The notes beneath the pieces were generated by a model. It ran no database searches and had not been told where the DNA came from. It saw only the letters and a list, made by a program, of their open reading frames with translations. The position numbers and the translations under genes are program-made. This document shows positions 294 to 28,554 of a DNA stretch of 32,000 nt, one piece after another. Within the stretch, counting starts at the first letter, position 1; each line of letters begins with the position of its first letter. This DNA is from Microcystis aeruginosa NIES-2549. GTDB taxonomy: Bacteria > Cyanobacteriota > Cyanobacteriia > Cyanobacteriales > Microcystaceae. The DNA lies in NCBI RefSeq assembly GCF_000981785.2, contig NZ_CP011304.1, positions 2,250,001-2,282,000 of the forward strand. The letters run 5' to 3'.

Positions 294-534
294 TAATTAG
301 GGTTTGCTGAAAAAGTTTGTTGCTGGGGTTAGGCTTCGGCCGTGAGCTCAGCGTTCGACTGAGCTCACGCCGAAGTCCGAACGGAGTCGGTCGTCGGGAG
401 TCGAATGAAAGTGCAAGGATTTTGAGTCCCTCGGATCGATTTCTCAACGTTTATTTCTTGCACTTTTTTGACTAAAAAAGTCCCAAAAGTGTTTTCTAGT
501 AATGCTTCCATTAATATTCAGCAAACCCTAATTA
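294..534 (+). mobile_element. MITE copy A (variant subfamily). Core is 300-528, flanked by the direct repeat TAATTA (294-299 and 529-534).
   Basis: Terminal inverted repeats are GGGTTTGCTGAA (300-311) and TTCAGCAAACCC (517-528). The ends are shared with the copies at 4213, 9800, 13579 and 31279. The interior differs: it has no GGGGTGT array and carries a long palindrome at 334-375 (CTTCGGCCGTGAGCTCAG ... CTGAGCTCACGCCGAAG). No ORF. Confidence 0.8.
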
Positions 535-9799: not shown

Positions 9800-10015
9800 T
9801 AATTAGGGTTTGCGGCAAAAAGTTTTTCGTGGGGGTAGGGTGTGGGGTGTGGGGTGTGGGGTTTTACCGATTTTCAGGTGGTCAATTACCTAATTTTCAG
9901 GGAAAAAGTCAAAATTTCGCCCCGATCACTCCAATGGCTGGCATTTTTTGATCTCAAAAAAGTCTAAAAGTCTTATCCCACAAGGTTTTTAGATTTAATC
10001 AGCCAACCCTAATTA
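9800..10015 (+). mobile_element. MITE copy C. Core is 9806-10009, flanked by the direct repeat TAATTA (9800-9805 and 10010-10015).
   Basis: Same family as copies B and E, with about 3.5 GGGGTGT heptamers (9836-9862). The right flanking repeat contains the stop codon (10013-10015) of the 1154-aa gene. Confidence 0.85.
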
Positions 10016-13000
10016 AAAAGAATACACGGCTGTTTTGATATTTTGGTAGTTATCATCTAGGTCTGATTCTAGGAGAATAATCGCAGTAATTCTTCTAGTC
10101 ATCTCGCTGACTTCCTGCACTTCTGCGATAGTTAATCCCCGTCCTAATAATTTTTCCTCGCGATAACTTAGCCATTTTTTAATGACTTGATAACCCCCGA
10201 TGGTATATTCCCACACCCGGACTGGTATATTTTGCCAATAGGCTCGATCGTTGAGATAAATATCATAGGTGGTTGTTCCTAATAATTTTCGCATTTCTGG
10301 ACTAATTACGCTCATTTCTGCGGTTGTATATTGTCTGGCGATCGCTTTTCCTTTACCCGGCATTGTCACGCCATTTTTCCCCCCGTGTCCCCAACCGACG
10401 TTAATAATTAAATCCCCCTTATCTGGGTTTAAATTTCCCCCATCAGTGCAGGAAATCAAGGCGATTTTTTGCAGTGCAGGGGTCGGTTTTTTGGTGACTC
10501 CTATAACGGGTTTTTCTGTGTCTAAAAGAGATGCGATCACTTGTCCTAGTTCGGCAGATTTAATTAATAATTCTTGGCTATTGGGAAGGGGAATCCTTGG
10601 GAAGTCTTGACGAATACCGTCGGCATTTTCCCCAAGATACAAGGGGGAGTACCCAATCGCTAACGAGTGCAGCCAAATTAAGGAAGCATTCTCGATATTT
10701 TCATCAAGATTATTAATACCCAGTTCATTTAAGTATTGACGAGATTTTTCTGAAAGATTGGCTTTTATTGAAGGAATATTCAAGTTACTGGAATCGAATA
10801 ATTTTCCTTGAGTATTATCTTCTGTCTTCACCTTCTCTGAATTTTGACGTAATCGTATAGGAAAGTGATAAGCATGACCTCTAATAAAGTCAAAGTCTCC
10901 TAAACAGTTAGTAAAATAAAATGGTATTCCTTCGGGAGAGGCAACACCAGCAGGACGACTGACTAAAAAGGAATTACCTTGAAATTGATGAATAAATAGC
11001 GAAGGTCTAGACTCATTCCAAAGCGGTCTAATTTGAGTATAATAACACCACTTAACCTCATAGGGTCTGAGCAGATAAGGTAACAGCATTTGAGGATTAA
11101 ATTTTTCGCGTAACTTTAAGACTTTATCTCTTGCTTTTTTGGCATCAAATCGAGCTGCATCTTTAGTTAAACCTGTATTAAGTGATGCTAATTCTTCCCA
11201 TGAAACATTTTGATCAAAGTATTTACTTATCCTTTCCGAAAGAATAGTTTTATCACTATCAATAAAACTATAGCCTCGATTCTCTTTATAACCTGTAATT
11301 GGAGCTTCATCAGATAAATCTGTTAACTTTGGCCATGCTAAATAGTGAGAAGAAACATCGGAGGGACGGAAAGAATAACGATTAGATTGTTCTGGGTTAG
11401 AGACTTGATACAAAGAATCAAAATCTTGATTATTTAAACTATCTAATAACTGTTCTCGTTTAGCAACTCCCCAGAAATGGCGAAAATAGACATCAACATT
11501 TTTATTCCTTACTTCCTTTCTTACCATTAGTCCGATAGTTGTCCCGACTCGAATTCCTTCCTTATTGTATTGAGTAGAAAAAACACTAGGATCGGGATTA
11601 CCTTCAGGGGTTAACTTTCCTGTTTCGCGACTATCCCCATTGAGACAATCAAACCAAAGACGATCAAATTCTTGTAAAAATCTTTGTCGCATCACCACAA
11701 AAGAAGGATCACCGAGATAGGAAAAATTAGAAATATAACAAACAACCCCTTTACCAGTATTTTCTGAAATACATCTTTCCGCTAAACGAAAAAAGCGCAC
11801 ATATAACTCATCCAGATTAAACTTTTTAATCCCCCAATCGGAGATTAAACCCTGTTTATACAATTCCACTAAACCTGCTTCTTCTGCGGGACTGGTTCCA
11901 GCAAAAGCATTGTAGGGAGGATTACCGAGAATAACTAAAATCGGTTTACCGCGCTTAACTTCATCAGCTGCCTCTCGTTCCTTATTTAACTCTGGAAAAC
12001 TCAATTGTAGCTGTTGAATTTTCTGTTTACTTTCCTCATCGGGAGGTTGCCAACCAGTTAAAGCATTAGTCAGATAAATCCCCACCCGTTCACTATCTTC
12101 TATTAAAGGTACACCCAAACTTTGCAGGAATAAACCTAATTGTAGATGAGCGACGACAAAAGGAGCGGTTAAAATCTCGAAACCGAAAATTCTTTCTATG
12201 GCTGCCTTTTTCACCAAAGCCATGGCTAAAGCACCCGCCCCATTTTCCTGTAAAGTATCGGTAATATAGCGCAAAACCTCGACTAAATAAGCACCAGTGC
12301 CACAGCAAGGATCGAGAATATAAACATCGGGATTAGCTAAACCGTCCTCGATATTTAATTCTTCTCGCAAAACTCGATCGACTCGCGCTACCATATAGCG
12401 AACAATTTCCGGAGGAGTGTACCAAACTCCCAATTCTTTGCGTAAATCGGGATCAAAAGCTTGCAAAAATGGTTCATAGAAATACTGTACCGCTTGTCCC
12501 TCATCGAATTGACGAAAAAATTCCTCTCGTCGCACTCGATTTAAAGCTGCACCGGTCCAATTCAAGACTTCTACTAATCCCAAAGATTTTAACTTACTCG
12601 GTGCGGCGATCTGCTCAAATAGGATCGCTAACATGGGAACATGGAGATGGTGGGCTGCGGATTTCCAATCGAACTTATCCTCTTTATCCTCGCGATTGAG
12701 GTTTTGCTTGTGCCATAATACCCAAGCGGAGAATAAACCATAAAAGAGGGTTTGCACGAGGGTAGAACGAAAAAATTTATTCCCCTGTTCCCGTTCAAAT
12801 TTGATACCTAGGGCATTTTCTAAAGCTTGACGAATATTGGCCAGAGCAGGAAGATCGGAATGATGTTCTAAGCGTGCTTTTGCGTCCCGCGCATAGGAAG
12901 CAAGAAACCAAGCAACATCGGCCGGTGAGGTGATAGGAGCCGCCTGTAAAAGCACTCTCTTTAGGTATTCTAAGAGGCTATCACCGTGTTCAGCGGCAAA

Positions 13001-13477
13001 TTTGGATGGATTTGAGGTTTTTAGCCAAAACTCGGCTTCTGACGGGGCTAAACTATAGGCTTCTAATTCTACCGGTTGACCTTGGCTATTGCGACCGATG
13101 AGCAGAAAATCGCGATAATTGCTGACTAATACTTGACCGTATTTTTGCCAGTATTTTTGTACTTGTTCGCTGGCGGCGATTTTTTTGATATCTTCTTTGG
13201 TTCCCTTAATCTCGATCGCACCTCTTTCGGGAAAAATCGCCGTAAAAGGTTCTAATTCTTGATTTTTGGGGAATTGATCGACGTTAAAAAGTCCCCCGTC
13301 CGGCAATCCCGCACCCTGATTTCTGAGGTTGATAATGCAGCGTACTCGCGGTTTTAGGGTTTTACCGATTTCGTTGAGGAGAGTTTCAAGAGTGCCGTAG
13401 TAAGAGGTTTCTTTTACTGCTGCTTGGGAGGAGTGGATTTCTTGCAGGTTGCGAAAATAATTAACGAGGGGATTCAT
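10013..13477 (-). CDS. Single-chain restriction-modification enzyme candidate. It combines an N-terminal PD-(D/E)XK-like domain, a gamma-class N6-adenine DNA methyltransferase and a type ISP-like C-terminal specificity domain, with no helicase/ATPase module.
   Basis: 1154-aa ATG ORF. Motif I is YILDPCCGTGAYL (about 12291-12330) and motif IV is VILGNPPYNAF (about 11907-11936), preceded by WYTPPEIV. The N-terminus has LPD (D codon 13298-13300) ... GAIEIKG (K codon 13205-13207). The C-terminal WEYTIGGYQVIKKWLSYREEKLLGRGLT matches my memory of the type ISP C-terminal domain signature. Confidence 0.75.
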   Translation of the reverse strand: MNPLVNYFRNLQEIHSSQAAVKETSYYGTLETLLNEIGKTLKPRVRCIINLRNQGAGLPDGGLFNVDQFPKNQELEPFTAIFPERGAIEIKGTKEDIKKIAASEQVQKYWQKYGQVLVSNYRDFLLIGRNSQGQPVELEAYSLAPSEAEFWLKTSNPSKFAAEHGDSLLEYLKRVLLQAAPITSPADVAWFLASYARDAKARLEHHSDLPALANIRQALENALGIKFEREQGNKFFRSTLVQTLFYGLFSAWVLWHKQNLNREDKEDKFDWKSAAHHLHVPMLAILFEQIAAPSKLKSLGLVEVLNWTGAALNRVRREEFFRQFDEGQAVQYFYEPFLQAFDPDLRKELGVWYTPPEIVRYMVARVDRVLREELNIEDGLANPDVYILDPCCGTGAYLVEVLRYITDTLQENGAGALAMALVKKAAIERIFGFEILTAPFVVAHLQLGLFLQSLGVPLIEDSERVGIYLTNALTGWQPPDEESKQKIQQLQLSFPELNKEREAADEVKRGKPILVILGNPPYNAFAGTSPAEEAGLVELYKQGLISDWGIKKFNLDELYVRFFRLAERCISENTGKGVVCYISNFSYLGDPSFVVMRQRFLQEFDRLWFDCLNGDSRETGKLTPEGNPDPSVFSTQYNKEGIRVGTTIGLMVRKEVRNKNVDVYFRHFWGVAKREQLLDSLNNQDFDSLYQVSNPEQSNRYSFRPSDVSSHYLAWPKLTDLSDEAPITGYKENRGYSFIDSDKTILSERISKYFDQNVSWEELASLNTGLTKDAARFDAKKARDKVLKLREKFNPQMLLPYLLRPYEVKWCYYTQIRPLWNESRPSLFIHQFQGNSFLVSRPAGVASPEGIPFYFTNCLGDFDFIRGHAYHFPIRLRQNSEKVKTEDNTQGKLFDSSNLNIPSIKANLSEKSRQYLNELGINNLDENIENASLIWLHSLAIGYSPLYLGENADGIRQDFPRIPLPNSQELLIKSAELGQVIASLLDTEKPVIGVTKKPTPALQKIALISCTDGGNLNPDKGDLIINVGWGHGGKNGVTMPGKGKAIARQYTTAEMSVISPEMRKLLGTTTYDIYLNDRAYWQNIPVRVWEYTIGGYQVIKKWLSYREEKLLGRGLTIAEVQEVSEMTRRITAIILLESDLDDNYQNIKTAVYSF

Positions 13478-13718: not shown

Positions 13719-15905
13719 TTAGATTTGTTCAATTGGAGAAATAAGATTAGATAAAATTTCGTTCCATTTTAATTTATGAATAGTTTGTAATTCCGAATCT
13801 ATTTCAATTAGATGGGAATAGCTATTGACAAATTCTTCTGGAGATGATATCAGTCTCAGATAATATTTAATTGTCGGTATAATACCATTGGTGATTATTT
13901 GACAACCATGGTTGTTTTTGATAGTTTGAATCTCAGACATGATTAACTCCACTTCTGTGGGTTTAACATCAAACGATGATAGGATATAATATCTTCTCGG
14001 ATTAAATTTAATAATTTTATCTTTGGCAATTCGGAGAATTTGTAAATCAATGTACTTACCATGCTTAATTTCAATAACTTCTACTAATTGTTTATTTTTA
14101 TCAAAAATCTCAATATCTCCTGCACTACCAGAAGTTAGATCAGAAGCTGTGTGACTGCCTAGAGGTTTTAATGTGCAGGATTTGTATCTTTCTACTTCTA
14201 TAATTAACCTTTGATAAATTGCATATAGTGCTAAAACAGGTAATTTGGAAGCTCCGCGAGTTTGATAATTGAAACTAAAATGATTTTCTAGGCAACTGCT
14301 CAAAGTGTTGATATCAAAAGGTTCAGGATTATCTATCTTCAAAATTTTAATCTTTTGAGTCTGGATAATCTGATTAACTTGATGAAGTAAAAGCGTTAAA
14401 ATAACTTCAGCTTGTTGAGGATTAGTTTCAATAAAATCAATTAAACCCAGAAAAGCATCTTTGGTTTTTTGATTACTAATTTTACCTTGATAATCTAAAG
14501 TATAGGGAAAGGGTTGTTCTAAAGAACGAGTTAGCCAGCCACTTTCTGCCATAGCTGGTAATCCCAATTGTTTCAAGGTGGGAGTAATATACTGAGTATC
14601 AATAGTTCTTCCTGAAAATCCTCCAGGTAAATTAGTTTGATGGTATCTAATATCTTGATTAGGATAGAGAATTTTATGAACTAATAAAGTTATTAAAACC
14701 GTATAAACTCCCTTTTTTTTTGAGCAATTAGTAGCAATTTGTTGGATATAGTTTTGATAGGGTTGAGGGAGCAGTGGTTGCCGATCATCTAAATTTAAGG
14801 ATTGGTCATAAATGTCTAATAACTTTTCTTTATGGTTCATAAAATCTAATCCGATAATTTCCAATTGAATATTCTGACGAGAAAAAGAAAACTCCTTTAA
14901 GGATACTCTAGAATTGTTTTCAAAAATATGTTTCTTAATGGCAATAGCCAACTCTTGAATCATGGGAATACAAACCGAATTACCCACCTGTTTATAAGAC
15001 TCAGCTAAGTTAGGATGAATTTGAAAACTATCGGGAAACTTCATCAGTCGATAGCATTCTTGTATAGTTAATTTACGCACCTGATCTTGTTCGGGTATAT
15101 AAATAAAAAAACGTCCAGATGTTTCCTGAGATGGTATAGTAGGATGTACTCCATCGATCGAATAAATTCGGTTAGGTTGATGATGAACCCGGGATAAATG
15201 TTCTGTATTTGGTCTGATACCTTTTTTCCAGATAGTTTTATTGCGATAACCGACAAAAATTAATCCTGATGGTTGTAAGGTAGGATTATCAATGAGAGTA
15301 TATTCTTTTTTATCTAAGTATTCAAAATTGCCTTGAGGAGACAGAAAATCGCGTAACTTAGGTATTGGTGAAGTATATTTTAATGAGTTGAAATTAAATT
15401 TTTTATTTTGGGTAGCAATAATAATAATTCTTTCTCGATTTTGCGGCACACCAAAATCCTTGGCATTTAAGAGCTTATAATCAACTAAATAACCCAGTTC
15501 TTCCAAAGAATGCAAAATAATATCTAAGTTTTTGCCTTTGTCGAGGTGAATTAGGTGTTTAACATTTTCCAGAAGAATTATTTTCGGCTTTTTTAATTCT
15601 ACTATTTCGCAGATGTGAAAAAATAGAGTTCCCCTTGTATCTCTAAATCCGGCTCGTTTTCCAGAAATGCTAAAGGGTTGACAGGGAAATCCTGCTGTCA
15701 ACACTTCAAAATCAGGCAGGTCATGGATAGCAATTTTTCTAATATCTTGATCGGGAATTTCTTGAAAATTATTGAAATATACTTTTCGACAGTTTTCGTC
15801 TATTTCACAAGAATATACACAGTCATAACCAACGCTCTCGAAAGCTAATCTAAATCCTCCAATACCAGCAAAAAGATCGATAAATCTGAGTTTTTCGTTT
15901 GTCAT
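13719..15905 (-). CDS. DNA (cytosine-5)-methyltransferase fused in frame to a C-terminal domain of about 390 aa that carries a PD-(D/E)XK-like motif (predicted endonuclease).
   Basis: The ORF is open to TTG at 15911; the ATG at 15905 gives MTNEKLRFIDLFAGIGGF. The m5C motifs are complete and in order: FAGIGGF, GFPCQPFS, LLENVKHL, QNRERIIII, ECYRLMKFPDSF and GNSVCIP. The C-terminal part has GDIEIF (D codon 14115-14117) ... VIEIKHG (K codon 14064-14066). The gene is very AT-rich (13 G+C out of 60 at 14041-14100). Confidence 0.8.
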   Translation of the reverse strand: MTNEKLRFIDLFAGIGGFRLAFESVGYDCVYSCEIDENCRKVYFNNFQEIPDQDIRKIAIHDLPDFEVLTAGFPCQPFSISGKRAGFRDTRGTLFFHICEIVELKKPKIILLENVKHLIHLDKGKNLDIILHSLEELGYLVDYKLLNAKDFGVPQNRERIIIIATQNKKFNFNSLKYTSPIPKLRDFLSPQGNFEYLDKKEYTLIDNPTLQPSGLIFVGYRNKTIWKKGIRPNTEHLSRVHHQPNRIYSIDGVHPTIPSQETSGRFFIYIPEQDQVRKLTIQECYRLMKFPDSFQIHPNLAESYKQVGNSVCIPMIQELAIAIKKHIFENNSRVSLKEFSFSRQNIQLEIIGLDFMNHKEKLLDIYDQSLNLDDRQPLLPQPYQNYIQQIATNCSKKKGVYTVLITLLVHKILYPNQDIRYHQTNLPGGFSGRTIDTQYITPTLKQLGLPAMAESGWLTRSLEQPFPYTLDYQGKISNQKTKDAFLGLIDFIETNPQQAEVILTLLLHQVNQIIQTQKIKILKIDNPEPFDINTLSSCLENHFSFNYQTRGASKLPVLALYAIYQRLIIEVERYKSCTLKPLGSHTASDLTSGSAGDIEIFDKNKQLVEVIEIKHGKYIDLQILRIAKDKIIKFNPRRYYILSSFDVKPTEVELIMSEIQTIKNNHGCQIITNGIIPTIKYYLRLISSPEEFVNSYSHLIEIDSELQTIHKLKWNEILSNLISPIEQI

Positions 15906-15938
15906 TGCCAAATTATGACATCAAAGAAATTAATCAAT

Positions 15939-26215: not shown

Positions 26216-28525
26216 TTAATCTCCTTGCCATTCCCGATCTTCCAAGTCCTTTTGAGGTAACAGCAACGTGGCTTCAATTTCTTGCCGGATTGCGGCTGTT
26301 ATTTCGCAGTTACTATTCAAACAATCGATCAGGAGTTGATTGGCCTCATAGTAGCGTTGGAGCAGCTGCTGTTGCTCAGTCGTAAACTGCCAGGGGTGAT
26401 GAATATTGCGATAATTGGCGATCGCACCCCGCAACTGTTCCACCCAGGCAGAATAGTTTTTCTGCCACCAGTGCTGAAGCCGTTCCAGGTTTTGACTCGG
26501 AGGTGGCAGTTGGTCTCTCAATTGTTGCAAAGACTTATAAAATCCAGCATCCAGAACCATCACCAGAATGTTGTTGAGTGCCTCGCTACAAGCATTGACG
26601 TATGCAAAATCCTGACTGTGGTCGATGGCAAACTCTACCAGCAAGTTCTCCAACGCCGCATCTAAAAACATCCCCTGATCGAGCGTGCTGGCTAAGGCAA
26701 AGCGATCTGCCGTATGCGGGCTTTGGGCAAGGGCAAGGTAAAATGCGCGTGCGGTCGCCACTTTGGTTTCGTCTGGGAGCTGCTGGGATTTTTGGCTGGC
26801 CCAACTCAAAAACTCTTGCAGATAGGAGTCTTGCGCGACTAAGGCATCAATTTGTTGCTTCATCAACTGCACCAGCGCATCTGCACTTCGCAACATGGCA
26901 GCCGTTAACAAGAAGACTTCGCGCCAGTGGGAATCGGTGATGTGACTCACCAACCCTCCCAGTGCTTGTTCTAATGCCTGCAAATTATGGCTGGCAACTA
27001 TTTTTCGAGCCGTGAAGTATTCTTGAAATGCCAGATAAGAAAATGAAAAAATGCCTCGCGCCCTTTCTGTGAGGATTCCATGCTGTGCCTCGATCGCTTT
27101 CAGCATGGCTTCGCTTTCGAGTTGGAGTTCCTCTGCTTCCAGGGTTGCACCTGGCAAATTCCGCAAATAGTCGCCAATGTATTGCTCAATCGTGCGTTGC
27201 TCAAAAAAATACTGCCCCTGTTCAAAAGTCACTGCTGCAAGCTGGCTCAACAGCTTCAATTTTTGGGGCAATAAAAACCCCCGGTAAACCTGATCGCGTT
27301 CGACTCCTCGAGCTTCATCCCATTTACCCAGCAGCAAATCCAGCCCTTGTTTATAAAACTCAGCCCGCTTGCTCGGAAATTTCCCTTGACCCTGAAACAC
27401 CCAGCAGGCGAGATGCAGAAACAGAGGTGTCACCACCAGTTGCCGAAATTGCCAGTTTTCCGGCAAGTCCAACTTCTCCATAAACTGAGCCGACTGCTCC
27501 TGCCCCGCTTGAGCAGTCGTTTTGCTCAGTGCCACAAACCACTTTTGCGCGAAGGTGCTGATTTGTGCCTGGGTAAAGGGGGCAATTTCTACATCAGTGA
27601 AACCTCGAATCTGGAGTTTTTGGGCAGCGGTGCGACAGGTTACTACAAATCGATTGCGATGATACTTTTCTGAGAATTGGCGAATTTCTCTCAGAACTGC
27701 TGTAATGTCCTGGTTGAGAACTTCATCCATGCCATCGAGCAACAGCAGGACTCTGCCCGCTTGCAGTAAGGTTTCCAGCACAGACGGGTTGGAAATTCCC
27801 GAGGTGAGCAATGCCTGACGGATGTAGTTGAACAGGCTAAATTCACCCCTGGGACTGGACTCCTCGGCAAATTCTCTCAATAAGATAAAAATCGGCACTT
27901 GATTCGCCGCAAACTCGCCTTGGTTGCACTGAATCGCCAGATGTTGCAAAAAGGTCGTTTTGCCAACCCCCGGCCTGCCCAAAACTCTAAGCTTTGAGTA
28001 AGTTTCAACAGCCTGCATTCCGGGTATTTGCTTCTGCTCAACCTCTCCCAAGCCGACGCGATCGAATTCAGCGGGACCCAAGTTTTGCCAATCGGCAATC
28101 TCCACCCACTGTTGACTGGCAATTTCCGCCAAAATATTGACATCCACATAGATGTCATCAATGCTGACTGGATGGCTGATGTCTAGTAACTGCAAGATGC
28201 CGCACTGGTTTTGGATGGTGTCCAGGCGTTGCGCTCGCACCTCTTGCACCAGAGCATCAATATTAGTTTTCGCCAGTTCTCCGGGTTCAGGAAATTCTGC
28301 GGGCGGAGCGAGGGCAATCTCCCGCCAATCCAAATCCAGAATCGAACAAATTTCCAGGAAAACCTGGCGATCAACGGGTTTTCCTGTGAAAAACCGCCAA
28401 ATCGGCTGGCGGGTCTTTAAGTTCACTTCCCCTGCTAGATTTTCCTGAGTCCACCCCTTGAGCGCAAAGGCTCGTTTAGCCTGTTTAATTCCCGAAGGGG
28501 AAGCCTGGAGCGATCTCTTGACCAT
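26216..28525 (-). CDS. STAND NTPase: N-terminal XRE-like HTH, NACHT P-loop domain and a C-terminal helical domain of about 400 aa, with no WD40/TPR repeats.
   Basis: The ATG at 28525 (MVKRSLQASP...) is preceded by GGGAGG; the track start at 28534 is TTG. The HTH-like N-terminus is GIKQAKRAFALKGWTQENLAGEVNLKTRQPIWRFFTGKPV. Walker A is GRPGVGKTTF (about 27950-27980) and Walker B is LLLLDGMDEV (about 27720-27750). TCR and the downstream NACHT helical motifs are present. Confidence 0.85.
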   Translation of the reverse strand: MVKRSLQASPSGIKQAKRAFALKGWTQENLAGEVNLKTRQPIWRFFTGKPVDRQVFLEICSILDLDWREIALAPPAEFPEPGELAKTNIDALVQEVRAQRLDTIQNQCGILQLLDISHPVSIDDIYVDVNILAEIASQQWVEIADWQNLGPAEFDRVGLGEVEQKQIPGMQAVETYSKLRVLGRPGVGKTTFLQHLAIQCNQGEFAANQVPIFILLREFAEESSPRGEFSLFNYIRQALLTSGISNPSVLETLLQAGRVLLLLDGMDEVLNQDITAVLREIRQFSEKYHRNRFVVTCRTAAQKLQIRGFTDVEIAPFTQAQISTFAQKWFVALSKTTAQAGQEQSAQFMEKLDLPENWQFRQLVVTPLFLHLACWVFQGQGKFPSKRAEFYKQGLDLLLGKWDEARGVERDQVYRGFLLPQKLKLLSQLAAVTFEQGQYFFEQRTIEQYIGDYLRNLPGATLEAEELQLESEAMLKAIEAQHGILTERARGIFSFSYLAFQEYFTARKIVASHNLQALEQALGGLVSHITDSHWREVFLLTAAMLRSADALVQLMKQQIDALVAQDSYLQEFLSWASQKSQQLPDETKVATARAFYLALAQSPHTADRFALASTLDQGMFLDAALENLLVEFAIDHSQDFAYVNACSEALNNILVMVLDAGFYKSLQQLRDQLPPPSQNLERLQHWWQKNYSAWVEQLRGAIANYRNIHHPWQFTTEQQQLLQRYYEANQLLIDCLNSNCEITAAIRQEIEATLLLPQKDLEDREWQGD

Positions 28526-28554
28526 ACAATCCAATCCTCCCTATCGAGTCAGAA

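What the first reader, a model, noticed from the sequence alone, without database searches (positions are those of the whole stretch)
13719..15911. Cytosine-5 DNA methyltransferase fused in frame to a PD-(D/E)XK-like C-terminal domain
The first roughly 330 residues carry the full ordered m5C-methyltransferase motif set. The ORF then continues without a stop for about 390 more residues. That extension is a helical region followed by GDIEIF-x12-VIEIKHG (D codon 14115-14117, E-I-K ending at 14064-14066), which looks like a restriction-endonuclease catalytic core.

The single-chain restriction-modification enzymes I know of (type IIG/IIC/IIB, ISP) use N6-adenine (gamma-class) methyltransferase modules. 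An m5C methyltransferase-nuclease fusion would therefore be unusual.

Alternatives:
- The internal ATG at 14838-14840 (MNHKEKLL...) could allow separate translation of the nuclease part.
- The fusion could reflect recent loss of a stop codon between M and R genes.

The gene is strikingly AT-rich (13 G+C of 60 nt at 14041-14100). I found no HIP1 site in it, which fits recent horizontal acquisition.
Basis: partly seen in the sequence, partly recalled or inferred. Interest (0 to 1): 0.65.

Follow-up and report, generated by a model that had tools for sequence, protein, structure and literature searches.

The report
Natural cytosine-methylase–restriction-nuclease fusion gene
This Microcystis gene joins a DNA cytosine methylase and a SacI/EcoT38I-like restriction nuclease in one protein; the fusion is conserved in many cyanobacteria whose genomes have almost no GDGCHC sites, yet databases label it only as a methylase.

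Summary
Window 13719-15911 (-) is one 730-aa ORF (likely ATG start at 15905). Residues 8-327 are a complete m5C methyltransferase (Pfam E 6e-91).

Residues 358-730 fold confidently (pLDDT 89). Over their full length they match the solved EcoT38I restriction endonuclease-DNA complex (Foldseek E 2e-10, TM 0.63-0.66). D599, E611, E614 and K616 are invariant in 215 homologs.

The fusion is not an accident:
- About 100 full-length fused homologs exist in cyanobacteria and Firmicutes-type bacteria, and both catalytic motif sets are kept.
- Relatives such as Nostoc NIES-3756 carry the same two modules as overlapping M and R genes.
- Fused and split forms interleave on a tree.

Genomes with the fused gene almost lack GDGCHC (8 observed, 160 expected in 386 kb; 2 vs 26 in the window). 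Control GNGCNC words are normal. This points to a GDGCHC-specific enzyme that has really restricted.

Most likely it is a natural single-chain m5C restriction-modification enzyme with two independent modules on a flexible tether. Separate translation of the nuclease from the retained internal ATG is not excluded.

The low GC is a family trait, and the gene is syntenic across Microcystis, so recent acquisition is not supported. Verdict: new variant of a known kind, moderate interest.

The parts
13719..15905 (-). Fused M-R open reading frame. 728 aa from the ATG at 15905, or 730 aa from the TTG at 15911; stop TAA at 13719-13721.
   Evidence: The 99%-identical protein P0121 is 728 aa.
14931..15890 (-). 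Cytosine-5 DNA methyltransferase domain (aa 8-327). Carries motifs I (FAGIGG), IV (PCQ; Cys77 codon 15681-15683), VI (ENV), VIII (QNRER) and X (GNSV).
   Evidence: PF00145 E 5.9e-91, profile positions 1-324 of 324. TIGR00675 1.4e-85. PADLOC MTase_II 2e-108. PCQ, ENV, QxRxR and GN[SA] are kept in 101 of 101 fused homologs.
14841..14915 (-). Flexible tether (about aa 333-357). It contains the conserved IQLE motif and corresponds to the C-terminal tail of the free-standing M protein in split systems.
   Evidence: pLDDT about 30 in the full-length model, with pTM 0.48. Junction alignments.
14838..14840 (-). Met358 ATG. This is the start codon of the free-standing R gene in split relatives and is retained inside the fused ORF.
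   Evidence: Free-standing homologs begin here (MNHKEKLL...). Met is kept in 81 of 102 fused homologs.
14187..14840 (-). N-terminal, mostly helical part of the nuclease module (aa 358-575). Very strongly conserved at aa 400-490. Presumed DNA-recognition region; the role is inferred, not tested.
   Evidence: AF2 secondary structure. Invariant columns. Precomputed Pfam hit 'RE_SacI_N' on homologs.
13842..14126 (-). PD-(D/E)XK catalytic core (about aa 596-690): beta-beta-alpha-beta-alpha-beta. D599 at 14115-14117, E611 at 14079-14081, E614 at 14070-14072, K616 at 14064-14066.
   Evidence: The four residues are invariant in 215 of 215 homologs. D599 and E-x-K lie on consecutive strands in the model. 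Fold match to EcoT38I; weaker matches to AspBHI and Mus81.

Best explanation
The gene encodes a natural single-chain Type II restriction-modification enzyme. In formal nomenclature it would be Type IIC because both activities sit in one chain. In design it is a Type IIP-like pair joined end to end.

**Architecture (shown)**
- The N-terminal module is a complete cytosine-5 methyltransferase.
- The C-terminal module is a SacI/EcoT38I-like PD-(D/E)XK endonuclease with its own DNA-recognition region.
- A disordered tether of about 25 residues joins them. This tether is simply the old C-terminal tail of the M protein.

**Origin (shown)**
- The fusion arose from an overlapping M-then-R operon by a small frame change or by loss of a stop codon.
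- In this family the fused and split states have interconverted repeatedly.

**Specificity (inferred)**
- Both modules recognise GDGCHC independently. This degenerate palindrome contains the SacI site, and by my own knowledge also the EcoT38I site.
- The methylase marks the inner C (GDGm5CHC).
- Two nuclease modules dimerise on an unmethylated site and cut it.

**Consequences of the design (inferred)**
- One chain enforces 1:1 stoichiometry.
- Monomers are M+ R-, so restriction starts only when the protein is concentrated enough to dimerise.
- With the methylase first, a nonsense or frameshift mutation in the methylase part also removes the nuclease. This is what is seen in a 98%-identical relative.
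For: - **Single ORF with both modules:**
- **Nuclease-module model:** pLDDT 88.9, pTM 0.81.
- **Fold match:** full-length match to the EcoT38I REase-DNA complex 7EDB, E 1.7e-10, TM 0.63/0.66.
- **Catalytic residues:** D599, E611, E614 and K616 are invariant in 215 homologs.
- **Both motif sets kept when fused:** all methylase motifs in 101 of 101 fused homologs and the nuclease motif in 100 of 101.
- **Fusion is conserved:** about 100 full-length fused homologs; 36 of the 80 best species-level genomes are fused and 41 are split.
- **Two-gene ancestor:** Nostoc NIES-3756 has an M gene and an R gene overlapping by 11 nt. Junctions show frame shifts or in-frame stops.
- **States interleave:** at least 14 fused/split changes on the R-domain tree.
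- **Site avoidance, pooled:** 32 fused-carrier species give GDGCHC 8 observed vs 159.5 expected. Other GNGCNC words give 178 vs 189.5. The three non-palindromic GDGCHC classes rank 1-3 of 2013.
- **Site avoidance, window:** 2 vs 25.6 for GDGCHC against 30 vs 25.6 for controls.
- **Site avoidance, per locus:** 31 of 36 fused loci have zero sites.
- **Other phyla:** the same depletion appears in Bacteroidota and Proteobacteria split carriers and in two Firmicutes-type fused carriers (2 vs 23.1; 1 vs 32.0).
- **Method control:** phage Ma-LMM01 gives 130 vs 124.
- **Tether:** pLDDT about 30 with no fixed domain packing, pTM 0.48.
- **Literature:** GDGcHC is a known Dcm-type methylation motif (PMC11001535) and Bsp1286I cuts GDGCHC (PMC3459991). 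An engineered R-M(m5C) fusion is active both ways (PMC3039593). The idea that restriction is regulated by assembly in single-chain RM enzymes is in PMC12707154.
- **Relative with a broken gene:** a GAA-to-TAA change at Glu285 in the methylase part.
Against: - No enzymatic data exist. Cleavage, methylation and the site are all inferred.
- The link to EcoT38I is structural only (15% identity). A profile of the family finds nothing in PDB sequences.
- The window protein does not reach any Pfam or NCBIfam nuclease model.
- Avoidance of GDGCHC shows that some enzyme of this specificity acted in these lineages. It does not prove that this gene is the one.
- A clade of Microcoleus/Phormidium split carriers has intact genes and an equally conserved target-recognition region, yet shows no depletion. 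One Firmicutes-type fused carrier also shows none (L088, 21 vs 26).
- The retained Met358 could allow separate translation of the nuclease.
- Fused proteins without a junction Met were found only on short, mobile-element-like contigs. Depletion was absent there and statistical power was very low.
- The Microcystis phage Ma-LMM01 does not avoid the site.
Confidence: 0.6

Rival explanations
1. The locus still works as two proteins. The long chain acts mainly as the methylase. Free nuclease of about 43 kDa is made by internal initiation at the retained ancestral start Met358 (14838-14840). The fusion would then be a near-neutral change of the stop/start overlap.
For: - Met358 is kept in 81 of 102 fused homologs and in all Microcystis copies.
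- Split relatives start R at exactly this codon, with no obvious ribosome-binding site either.
- Fused and split states toggle often, which suggests little functional difference between them.
- Met-less fusions gave no evidence of restriction pressure.
Against: - 21 of 102 fused homologs have lost this Met, yet they keep D599/E614/K616 and the methylase motifs.
- One Met-less cyanobacterial carrier (Thr at the junction, L039) still has 0 GDGCHC sites against 5.1 expected.
- No strong Shine-Dalgarno sequence lies upstream of Met358; there is only GGA at -12 to -10, read from the sequence.
- No promoter-like signal stands out inside the gene: 9 sites found against 10.6 in shuffles.
Confidence: 0.2
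2. The nuclease module no longer cuts. It survives as an extra DNA-binding or targeting module, so the protein is in effect an orphan cytosine methylase.
For: - Every source annotates the protein only as a DNA cytosine methyltransferase.
- Cyanobacteria carry several orphan methylases (PMC6105098).
- Some carriers show no site avoidance.
Against: - The four acidic/lysine catalytic residues are invariant in 215 homologs, fused or not. A binding-only role does not need them.
- Near-total loss of GDGCHC from carrier genomes is the signature of cutting, not of methylation.
Confidence: 0.1
3. The fusion is an artefact: a sequencing or assembly error, or a very recent stop-codon loss in a decaying gene pair.
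For: - Some close relatives are damaged. L004 has a nonsense codon at Glu285.
- L064 (M. ichthyoblabe) has frame changes.
- L034 and L023 are also degenerate.
Against: - The same uninterrupted fused frame is present in five other Microcystis species-level genomes.
- It is also present in about 100 homologs down to 49% identity.
- A 99%-identical protein cluster has 320 member sequences.
Confidence: 0.02
4. The protein is a real fused RM enzyme, but GDGCHC is not its site. Another restriction system in the same genomes causes the avoidance, and this enzyme recognises a narrower or different sequence, for example GAGCTC or GRGCYC.
For: - Microcystis and other bloom-forming cyanobacteria carry very many RM systems and avoid many palindromes (PMC8262939).
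- Several carriers with a conserved target-recognition region show no GDGCHC depletion.
- The only two GDGCHC sites left in the window are both GAGCTC.
Against: - Depletion covers all six GDGCHC classes and none of the three non-palindromic GNGCNC classes outside that motif.
- It follows the gene family across Cyanobacteria, Bacteroidota, Proteobacteria and Firmicutes-type genomes.
- The structural relative EcoT38I and the weak Pfam relative SacI have sites that are subsets of GDGCHC. The SacI site is in the Pfam family description; the EcoT38I site GRGCY^C is my own knowledge and was not verified here.
Confidence: 0.2

Closest known systems
Two-gene Type IIP systems of the SacI / EcoT38I kind (m5C methylase gene followed by a PD-(D/E)XK endonuclease gene), e.g. 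the homologous M+R operon of Nostoc sp. NIES-3756
   Same: - Same two protein families in the same gene order (M then R).
- 57-58% identity in the R module and 60-75% in the M module.
- Same invariant D...ExExK motif.
- Same site avoidance in most carriers.
   Different: Here the two genes form one reading frame. The tail of M (IQLE motif) has become an internal tether, and the R start codon is an internal Met.
EcoT38I restriction endonuclease (PDB 7EDB/7E8R)
   Same: Whole-chain fold similarity (TM 0.63-0.66 over about 380 aligned columns, Foldseek E 1.7e-10). Its site GRGCY^C (own knowledge, not verified here) is a subset of the inferred GDGCHC.
   Different: - Only 15% identity, and no profile-level sequence match.
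- EcoT38I is a free-standing R protein in a system with a C (controller) protein (PMC2632904).
Classical Type IIC/IIG single-chain RM enzymes (MmeI, BpuSI, Eco57I, BcgI; BtgZI as the odd one)
   Same: Nuclease and methylase sit in one polypeptide. That is the formal definition of Type IIC (PMC4081073).
   Different: - Those have an N-terminal nuclease, a gamma-class (or in BtgZI alpha-class) N6-adenine methylase and one shared recognition module, and they cut outside the site (PMC4081073, PMC3039593).
- Here the methylase comes first and is cytosine-5. Each module has its own recognition apparatus.
- The nuclease is of a kind that cuts within a palindrome (inferred).
- The window also holds a classical example next door, at 10013-13477.
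Engineered RM.Eco29kI fusion (Mokrishcheva et al. 2011, PMC3039593)
   Same: A Type IIP endonuclease and an m5C methylase joined by removing the stop/start overlap. It was shown to methylate, to cut, and to restrict phage about 100-fold. The authors predicted that natural counterparts could exist.
   Different: That fusion is artificial, has the order R-M, and uses a GIY-YIG nuclease. The present one is natural, has the order M-R, uses a PD-(D/E)XK nuclease, and is conserved over large evolutionary distances.
GDGCH^C enzymes Bsp1286I / SduI / NspII / AocII
   Same: Same inferred recognition sequence. Bsp1286I = GDGCHC is confirmed in PMC3459991. NspII and AocII come from cyanobacteria (own knowledge).
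   Different: I could not test whether they belong to this family or whether any of them is a fusion.
Dcm-Vsr type fusions (m5C methylase fused to a very-short-patch repair nuclease)
   Same: A cytosine-5 methylase joined to a nuclease domain (own knowledge).
   Different: - No Vsr family hit in Pfam or NCBIfam.
- The fold match is to a restriction enzyme, not to Vsr.
- The free-standing homolog is a 370-aa protein, far larger than Vsr.

Membership tests
Cytosine-5 DNA methyltransferases (PF00145 / TIGR00675) | Full-length match to the family profile above the curated cut-off | tested here: met
   PF00145 305.7 bits against a cut-off of 22, profile positions 1-324 of 324. TIGR00675 287.9 bits against 100.65.
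Cytosine-5 DNA methyltransferases (PF00145 / TIGR00675) | Ordered catalytic motifs: I FxGxG, IV PCQ (catalytic Cys), VI ENV, VIII QxRxR, X GN(S/A)V | tested here: met
   All are present in the window protein (translation). They are kept in 101 of 101 fused homologs, with motif I matching the strict pattern in 94 of 101.
Cytosine-5 DNA methyltransferases (PF00145 / TIGR00675) | AdoMet-dependent C5 methylation of a defined DNA site | not testable with these tools
   Needs a methylome or an enzyme assay.
PD-(D/E)XK nuclease superfamily | D ... (D/E)-x-K motif on adjacent beta-strands of an alpha-beta-beta-beta-alpha-beta core | tested here: met
   G-D599-I ... E611-x-x-E614-x-K616 is invariant in 215 homologs. 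The motif lies on strands 243-246 and 252-259 of the model, followed by helix-strand-helix-strand. Secondary fold matches are to the PD-(D/E)XK proteins AspBHI and Mus81.
PD-(D/E)XK nuclease superfamily | Mg2+-dependent phosphodiester cleavage | not testable with these tools
   Indirect support only: near-absence of the inferred site in carrier genomes.
SacI restriction endonuclease family (Pfam PF09566, RE_SacI / RE_SacI_N) | Match to the family profile at or above the gathering score | tested here: inconclusive
   - The window's C-terminal half gives no PF09566 hit even at E up to 10 in the local Pfam.
- Homolog P0076 scores 19.1 bits against a cut-off of 19.3.
- A newer Pfam release, precomputed, lists PF09566 for most homologs, some marked weak.
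- One source names a homolog 'restriction endonuclease, SacI family'.
SacI restriction endonuclease family (Pfam PF09566, RE_SacI / RE_SacI_N) | Recognition of GAGCTC | tested here: inconclusive
   GAGCTC is depleted in fused carriers (1 vs 10.9), but so are all other GDGCHC words. This fits a broader site that includes GAGCTC.
EcoT38I-like restriction endonucleases | Whole-chain structural similarity to the solved enzyme | tested here: met
   7edb_A: E 1.7e-10, probability 1.00, TM 0.63/0.66 over 381 columns.
EcoT38I-like restriction endonucleases | Detectable sequence homology | tested here: not met
   phmmer and a 115-sequence profile find no EcoT38I chain at E up to 10. Identity in the structural alignment is 15%.
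Type IIC (combined R and M in one polypeptide; Roberts 2003 nomenclature as summarised in PMC4081073) | Endonuclease and methyltransferase domains in the same protein chain | tested here: met
   One ORF carries both domains, and this is conserved in about 100 homologs.
Type IIC (combined R and M in one polypeptide; Roberts 2003 nomenclature as summarised in PMC4081073) | Usual architecture: N-terminal PD-(D/E)XK domain, gamma-class N6-adenine methylase, shared specificity module, cleavage at a distance | tested here: not met
   The order is methylase then nuclease. The methylase is cytosine-5. The nuclease module is homologous to complete free-standing Type II endonucleases that have their own recognition region.
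Type IIC (combined R and M in one polypeptide; Roberts 2003 nomenclature as summarised in PMC4081073) | Both activities shown for the single chain | not testable with these tools
   Needs protein work. Internal initiation at Met358 is not excluded.

The most novel reading that the evidence does not exclude
This would be the first recognised natural family of single-chain restriction-modification enzymes built on a cytosine-5 methylase: an obligate M-R chain specific for GDGCHC.

Restriction would be gated by dimerisation of the tethered nuclease modules. Monomers would be methylase-only and dimers would cut.

The methylase-first order would act as a built-in fail-safe, because truncating mutations in the methylase part also remove the nuclease.

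The repeated toggling between fused and split states would make the family a natural experiment on why and how RM genes fuse.
Probability: 0.4. Interest if true: 0.65.

Novelty: new variant of a known kind. Interest (0 to 1): 0.5.

Why it matters
- **Textbook gap.** Single-chain restriction-modification enzymes are described as N6-adenine enzymes that share one recognition module. Here nature has repeatedly joined a complete cytosine-5 methylase to a complete Type IIP-like endonuclease and kept the product for a long time.

- **A testable regulation model.** The family allows a direct test of two ideas. One is that single-chain systems control toxicity through concentration-dependent dimerisation. 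The other is that gene order protects against 'nuclease without methylase' accidents.

- **Annotation and censuses.** These 700-730-aa proteins are annotated as plain methylases. They fall below the 750-aa filter that one large census used to look for hidden nucleases (PMC8262939). Restriction systems in bloom-forming cyanobacteria are therefore probably undercounted.

- **Genetics of carrier strains.** The inferred GDGCHC barrier is directly relevant to transforming Microcystis, Crocosphaera (Cyanothece 51142), Stanieria, Anabaena and others. Removing or pre-methylating GDGCHC sites in vectors may help.

- **New tool enzymes.** The family may offer enzymes with Bsp1286I/SduI-like specificity.

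Tried and rejected
- **Sequence-family searches of the C-terminal half.** Pfam, NCBIfam, PADLOC and PDB sequence searches gave nothing significant. The only hits were DUF3969 (E 0.02-0.17) and YraN (E 0.74). A 115-sequence profile against PDB gave only chance hits to imidazoleglycerol-phosphate dehydratase.
- **Stop-codon loss or assembly error.** Rejected after finding about 100 fused homologs.
- **Recent horizontal acquisition.** Rejected from synteny and equal divergence in Microcystis, and from family-wide low GC.
- **HIP1 absence as a signal.** Not informative, because about one site is expected.
- **Palindrome avoidance in the window alone.** Microcystis avoids dozens of palindromes, so this could not single out a site. 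Pooling many carrier species and using non-palindromic members of the degenerate motif solved the problem.
- **Narrower site in the non-depleted Microcoleus clade.** No GDGCHC word is depleted there, and its target-recognition region is as conserved as elsewhere. This is unexplained.
- **Phage avoidance.** Ma-LMM01 shows none.
- **Met-less junction fusions as a test of the internal-start rival.** Contigs were short, AT-rich and mobile-element-like, with 2.6-6.3 sites expected, so the result is inconclusive.
- **Promoter and terminator scan.** Nothing above shuffled background.
- **Literature.** No paper in the library describes a natural m5C methylase-restriction endonuclease fusion or links Bsp1286I-type sites to cyanobacteria. 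The primary EcoT38I paper (PMC151499) is not held, so the EcoT38I site rests on my own knowledge.
Full report
**1. The observation**

The window carries one uninterrupted ORF at 13719..15911 on the minus strand, 730 aa.
- D599 at 14115-14117.
- E614 at 14070-14072 and K616 at 14064-14066.
- The internal ATG (Met358) at 14838-14840.
- 13 G+C in 14041-14100.

The listed TTG start is followed two codons later by an ATG (15903-15905). A 99%-identical database protein is 728 aa, so the ATG is the likelier start.

Residues 8-327 match the cytosine-5 methyltransferase profile end to end (PF00145 E 5.9e-91; TIGR00675 1.4e-85; PADLOC MTase_II 2e-108).

**2. What the C-terminal half is**

Sequence-family libraries and PDB sequences give nothing significant for residues about 340-730. 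Homology search does.

The region has more than 3000 relatives. Most are free-standing proteins of 365-377 aa that begin at the position of Met358. Many carry a precomputed Pfam PF09566 (RE_SacI / RE_SacI_N) hit, and one source names a member 'restriction endonuclease, SacI family'. An exhaustive profile search finds 889 cluster representatives.

In my own Pfam scan the link to PF09566 is borderline. Homolog P0076 scores 19.1 bits against a cut-off of 19.3, and the window protein gives no hit. Membership of the SacI family is therefore left open.

An AlphaFold2 model of residues 358-730 is confident (pLDDT 88.9, pTM 0.81). Its best match among solved structures is the EcoT38I restriction endonuclease bound to DNA (7EDB: E 1.7e-10, TM 0.63/0.66 over about 380 columns, 15% identity). 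Weak matches to other PD-(D/E)XK nucleases follow.

D599, E611, E614, K616 and K632 are invariant in 215 aligned homologs. In the model they lie on consecutive strands of a beta-beta-alpha-beta-alpha-beta core. SacI itself was assigned to the PD-(D/E)XK superfamily by sequence analysis (PMC2441816).

It is not supported by direct sequence-family membership.

**3. Fusion or two genes?**

In Nostoc sp. NIES-3756 the homologs are two genes: a 364-aa m5C methylase and a 370-aa R protein whose ATG overlaps the end of M by 11 nt.

The window's arrangement is nevertheless not a private accident.
- A search with the full-length protein returns about 100 fused proteins of 696-760 aa.
  - They reach 61-69% identity in Crocosphaera subtropica ATCC 51142, Stanieria PCC 7437, Pleurocapsa, Waterburya, Spirulina, Anabaena, Nostoc, Nodularia, Richelia and others.
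  - They reach about 50% identity in Priestia, Virgibacillus, Terrisporobacter and Oscillospiraceae.
- All are named only 'DNA cytosine methyltransferase'.
- Of the 80 best species-level genomes carrying the R module, 36 are fused, 41 are split and 3 have no methylase directly upstream.
- All 101 full-length fused proteins keep PCQ, ENV, QxRxR and GN[SA], and 100 keep the nuclease motif.

The junctions are informative. The 'linker' is the old C-terminal tail of M. In cyanobacteria it carries a conserved P-IQLE-IP-L motif whose codons differ synonymously between loci. The two states differ by a frame change within the stop/start overlap or by in-frame stop codons (Anabaena cylindrica against A. 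azotica).

On an R-domain neighbour-joining tree the two states interleave, with at least 14 changes. The tree has no bootstrap, so this number is only indicative.

A full-length model shows two well-folded modules joined by about 25 residues of very low confidence, with pTM 0.48. The modules look independent on a flexible tether.

**4. Host and history**

The window is from Microcystis: 97-99% matches to several Microcystis species-level genomes.

In most of them the gene lies next to the ferredoxin-type glutamate synthase gene, as it does here. Its nucleotide divergence (96.5-99%) equals that of the flanks. The gene is more AT-rich than its flanks in all 29 fused loci examined (0.30 against 0.40).

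Low GC is thus a property of the family, and recent acquisition by this strain is not supported.

Some copies are decaying.
- One 98-99% identical relative has a single GAA-to-TAA change at Glu285, inside the methylase part.
- M. ichthyoblabe FBCC-A1114 has frame disruptions.

**5. Evidence that the system restricts, and at which site**

EcoT38I (GRGCY^C, my own knowledge) and SacI (GAGCT^C) cut related sites. I therefore compared observed and expected counts, using a maximal-order Markov model, for all G-N-G-C-N-C words in the DNA around the gene in many carrier species.

| DNA set | GDGCHC observed / expected | Other GNGCNC observed / expected |
|---|---|---|
| 32 fused-carrier species, 386 kb | 8 / 159.5 | 178 / 189.5 |
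| Window, 32 kb | 2 / 25.6 | 30 / 25.6 |
| Split carriers, pooled | 148 / 294.6 | 273 / 301.2 |
| Firmicutes-type fused carrier L087 | 2 / 23.1 | 47 / 42.1 |
| Firmicutes-type fused carrier L090 | 1 / 32.0 | 24 / 26.6 |
| Firmicutes-type fused carrier L088 | 21 / 26.0 | 16 / 11.7 |
| Phage Ma-LMM01, 50 kb | 130 / 123.6 | 79 / 75.2 |

Further points:
- In the fused carriers, the three non-palindromic GDGCHC classes (GAGCCC, GGGCAC, GAGCAC) rank 1, 2 and 3 of 2013 non-palindromic hexamer classes for depletion.
- 31 of 36 fused loci contain no site at all.
- The two surviving sites in the window are both GAGCTC, inside one hairpin at 335-385.
- Depletion is also seen in split carriers from Nostocales, Bacteroidota and Proteobacteria.
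- The phage value near 1 serves as a control of the method.

GDGCHC is the Bsp1286I site (PMC3459991), and GDGcHC is a documented Dcm-type methylation motif (PMC11001535).

I infer that the family recognises GDGCHC and that the nuclease has been active over evolutionary time in lineages with the fused gene.

Caveats:
- Avoidance cannot be tied to this gene with certainty.
- A Microcoleus/Phormidium clade of split carriers has intact genes and an equally conserved target-recognition region, yet shows no depletion.
- The third Firmicutes-type fused carrier (L088) shows none either.

**6. Mechanism**

*Shown.* There is one ORF with two complete and conserved catalytic modules joined by a disordered tether. 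It descends from an overlapping M-R operon. The inferred site has almost vanished from carrier genomes.

*Inferred.*
- The methylase module methylates GDGm5CHC as a monomer.
- Two nuclease modules must pair on a palindromic site to cut. Restriction would then depend on protein concentration, an idea already put forward for Type IIC enzymes in PMC12707154.
- Stoichiometry is fixed at 1:1.
- Because the methylase comes first, truncating mutations in it also remove the nuclease, as in the relative with the Glu285 stop.
- An engineered Eco29kI R-M(m5C) fusion shows that such a chain can methylate, cut and restrict phage (PMC3039593).

*Main rival.* Free nuclease may be made from Met358, which is retained in 81 of 102 fused homologs. 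I tried to test this with fusions that lack a junction Met. Their contigs were short, AT-rich and mobile-element-like, and statistical power was too low. One Met-less cyanobacterial carrier has 0 sites against 5.1 expected. The rival stays open at about 0.2.

**7. Comparison with what is known, and novelty**

By definition this is a Type IIC enzyme, because R and M sit in one chain. It fails the usual Type IIC/IIG architecture of an N-terminal nuclease, an N6-adenine methylase, a shared recognition module and cleavage at a distance (PMC4081073).

What the literature I could read says:
- In 2011 all proven Type IIC enzymes had m6A methylases (PMC3039593).
- In 2014 only 0.9% of predicted Type IIC systems resembled two-gene Type II systems, mainly in Firmicutes (PMC4176335).
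- I found no paper describing a natural m5C methylase-restriction endonuclease fusion.
- REBASE could not be consulted, so prior listing there cannot be excluded.

Both modules belong to known families and the proteins are already in the databases, mislabelled. I therefore rate this as a new variant of a known kind and of moderate interest. It is a real, conserved and probably active oddity that gives a clean natural system for asking why RM genes fuse. It also has practical weight for RM censuses and for the genetics of bloom-forming cyanobacteria.

Noticed in passing
window 10013-13477 (-): Directly downstream lies a second, classical single-chain RM gene of 1154 aa.
- PADLOC REase_MTase_IIG E 2.5e-86.
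- Pfam Type_ISP_C 1.7e-31 plus N6_Mtase.
- An NPPY motif, and an N-terminal ...AIEIKG... nuclease-like motif.

Among Microcystis strains its middle part (about 10766-11312) does not align. N-terminal fragments (13003-13477) are duplicated in two strains (L004, L007), and one relative has no full-length copy, only such fragments. This looks like target-recognition-domain swapping or decay.
   Followed up: partly
window 335-385: A near-perfect hairpin, GGCTTCGGCCGTGAGCTCAG-cgttcga-CTGAGCTCACGCCGAAGTCC, holds the only two GDGCHC (GAGCTC) sites in the whole 32 kb. It may be a small repeat element or a terminator. Why the sites survive there is unknown.
   Followed up: no
loci L044, L046-L048, L050, L053, L055, L078 (Microcoleus / Phormidium / Oscillatoriales): These split-gene carriers have intact M and R ORFs and a methylase target-recognition region about 72% identical to the window's. 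They show no GDGCHC avoidance at all, e.g. GAGCTC 10 observed vs 4.3 expected. Possible reasons are recent arrival, silence or a changed function. Not resolved.
   Followed up: partly
cyanobacterial M/R junctions, e.g. window 14841-14915; L043, L056, L028, L037: The C-terminal tail of the methylase carries a conserved P-IQLE-(I/L)-P motif in both fused and split cyanobacterial forms. Its codons differ synonymously between loci, yet AlphaFold predicts it as disordered. It is absent from Bacteroidota, archaeal and Firmicutes-type relatives. It could be an M-R contact peptide.
   Followed up: no
L004 7140-9326 (Microcystis GCA_977016975.1); L064 (M. ichthyoblabe FBCC-A1114): Close relatives carry inactivated copies. 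One has a single GAA-to-TAA nonsense change at Glu285 of the methylase part, with the nuclease part otherwise intact. The other has frame disruptions near window position 15484-15492.
   Followed up: yes
proteins P0316 (1008 aa), P0332 (1060 aa), P0317 (575 aa), P0347 (528 aa): Relatives of the nuclease module occur in other architectures. In two proteins it sits at the C-terminus of chains of 1000 aa or more. In another it sits near the N-terminus, followed by an extra 185 aa or so. What it is fused to was not examined.
   Followed up: no
window 26216-28534 (-): A 772-aa NACHT + NCH2 (STAND NTPase) protein, a kind often linked to defence, lies about 10 kb from the RM genes.
   Followed up: no
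window, whole: HIP1 (GCGATCGC) occurs 14 times against 0.27 expected. None lies between 10346 and 16823, the stretch holding both RM genes. Many 6-bp palindromes are absent from about 128 kb of Microcystis DNA, including TGCGCA, GACGTC, GGGCCC, GTGCAC, AGTACT, GCTAGC, ACTAGT, GTCGAC and ATGCAT.
   Followed up: partly
L094 / L095 (metagenome contigs): A Met-less fused homolog (P0211) sits on a small contig between a MobC-like gene and a GmrSD_N (Type IV restriction) gene. This suggests a mobile defence cassette.
   Followed up: no
literature, PMC8262939: A large census of RM systems in bloom-forming cyanobacteria re-examined only methylase-containing proteins longer than 750 aa for hidden nuclease domains. 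Fusions of 700-730 aa like this one would have been counted as plain methylases.
   Followed up: no
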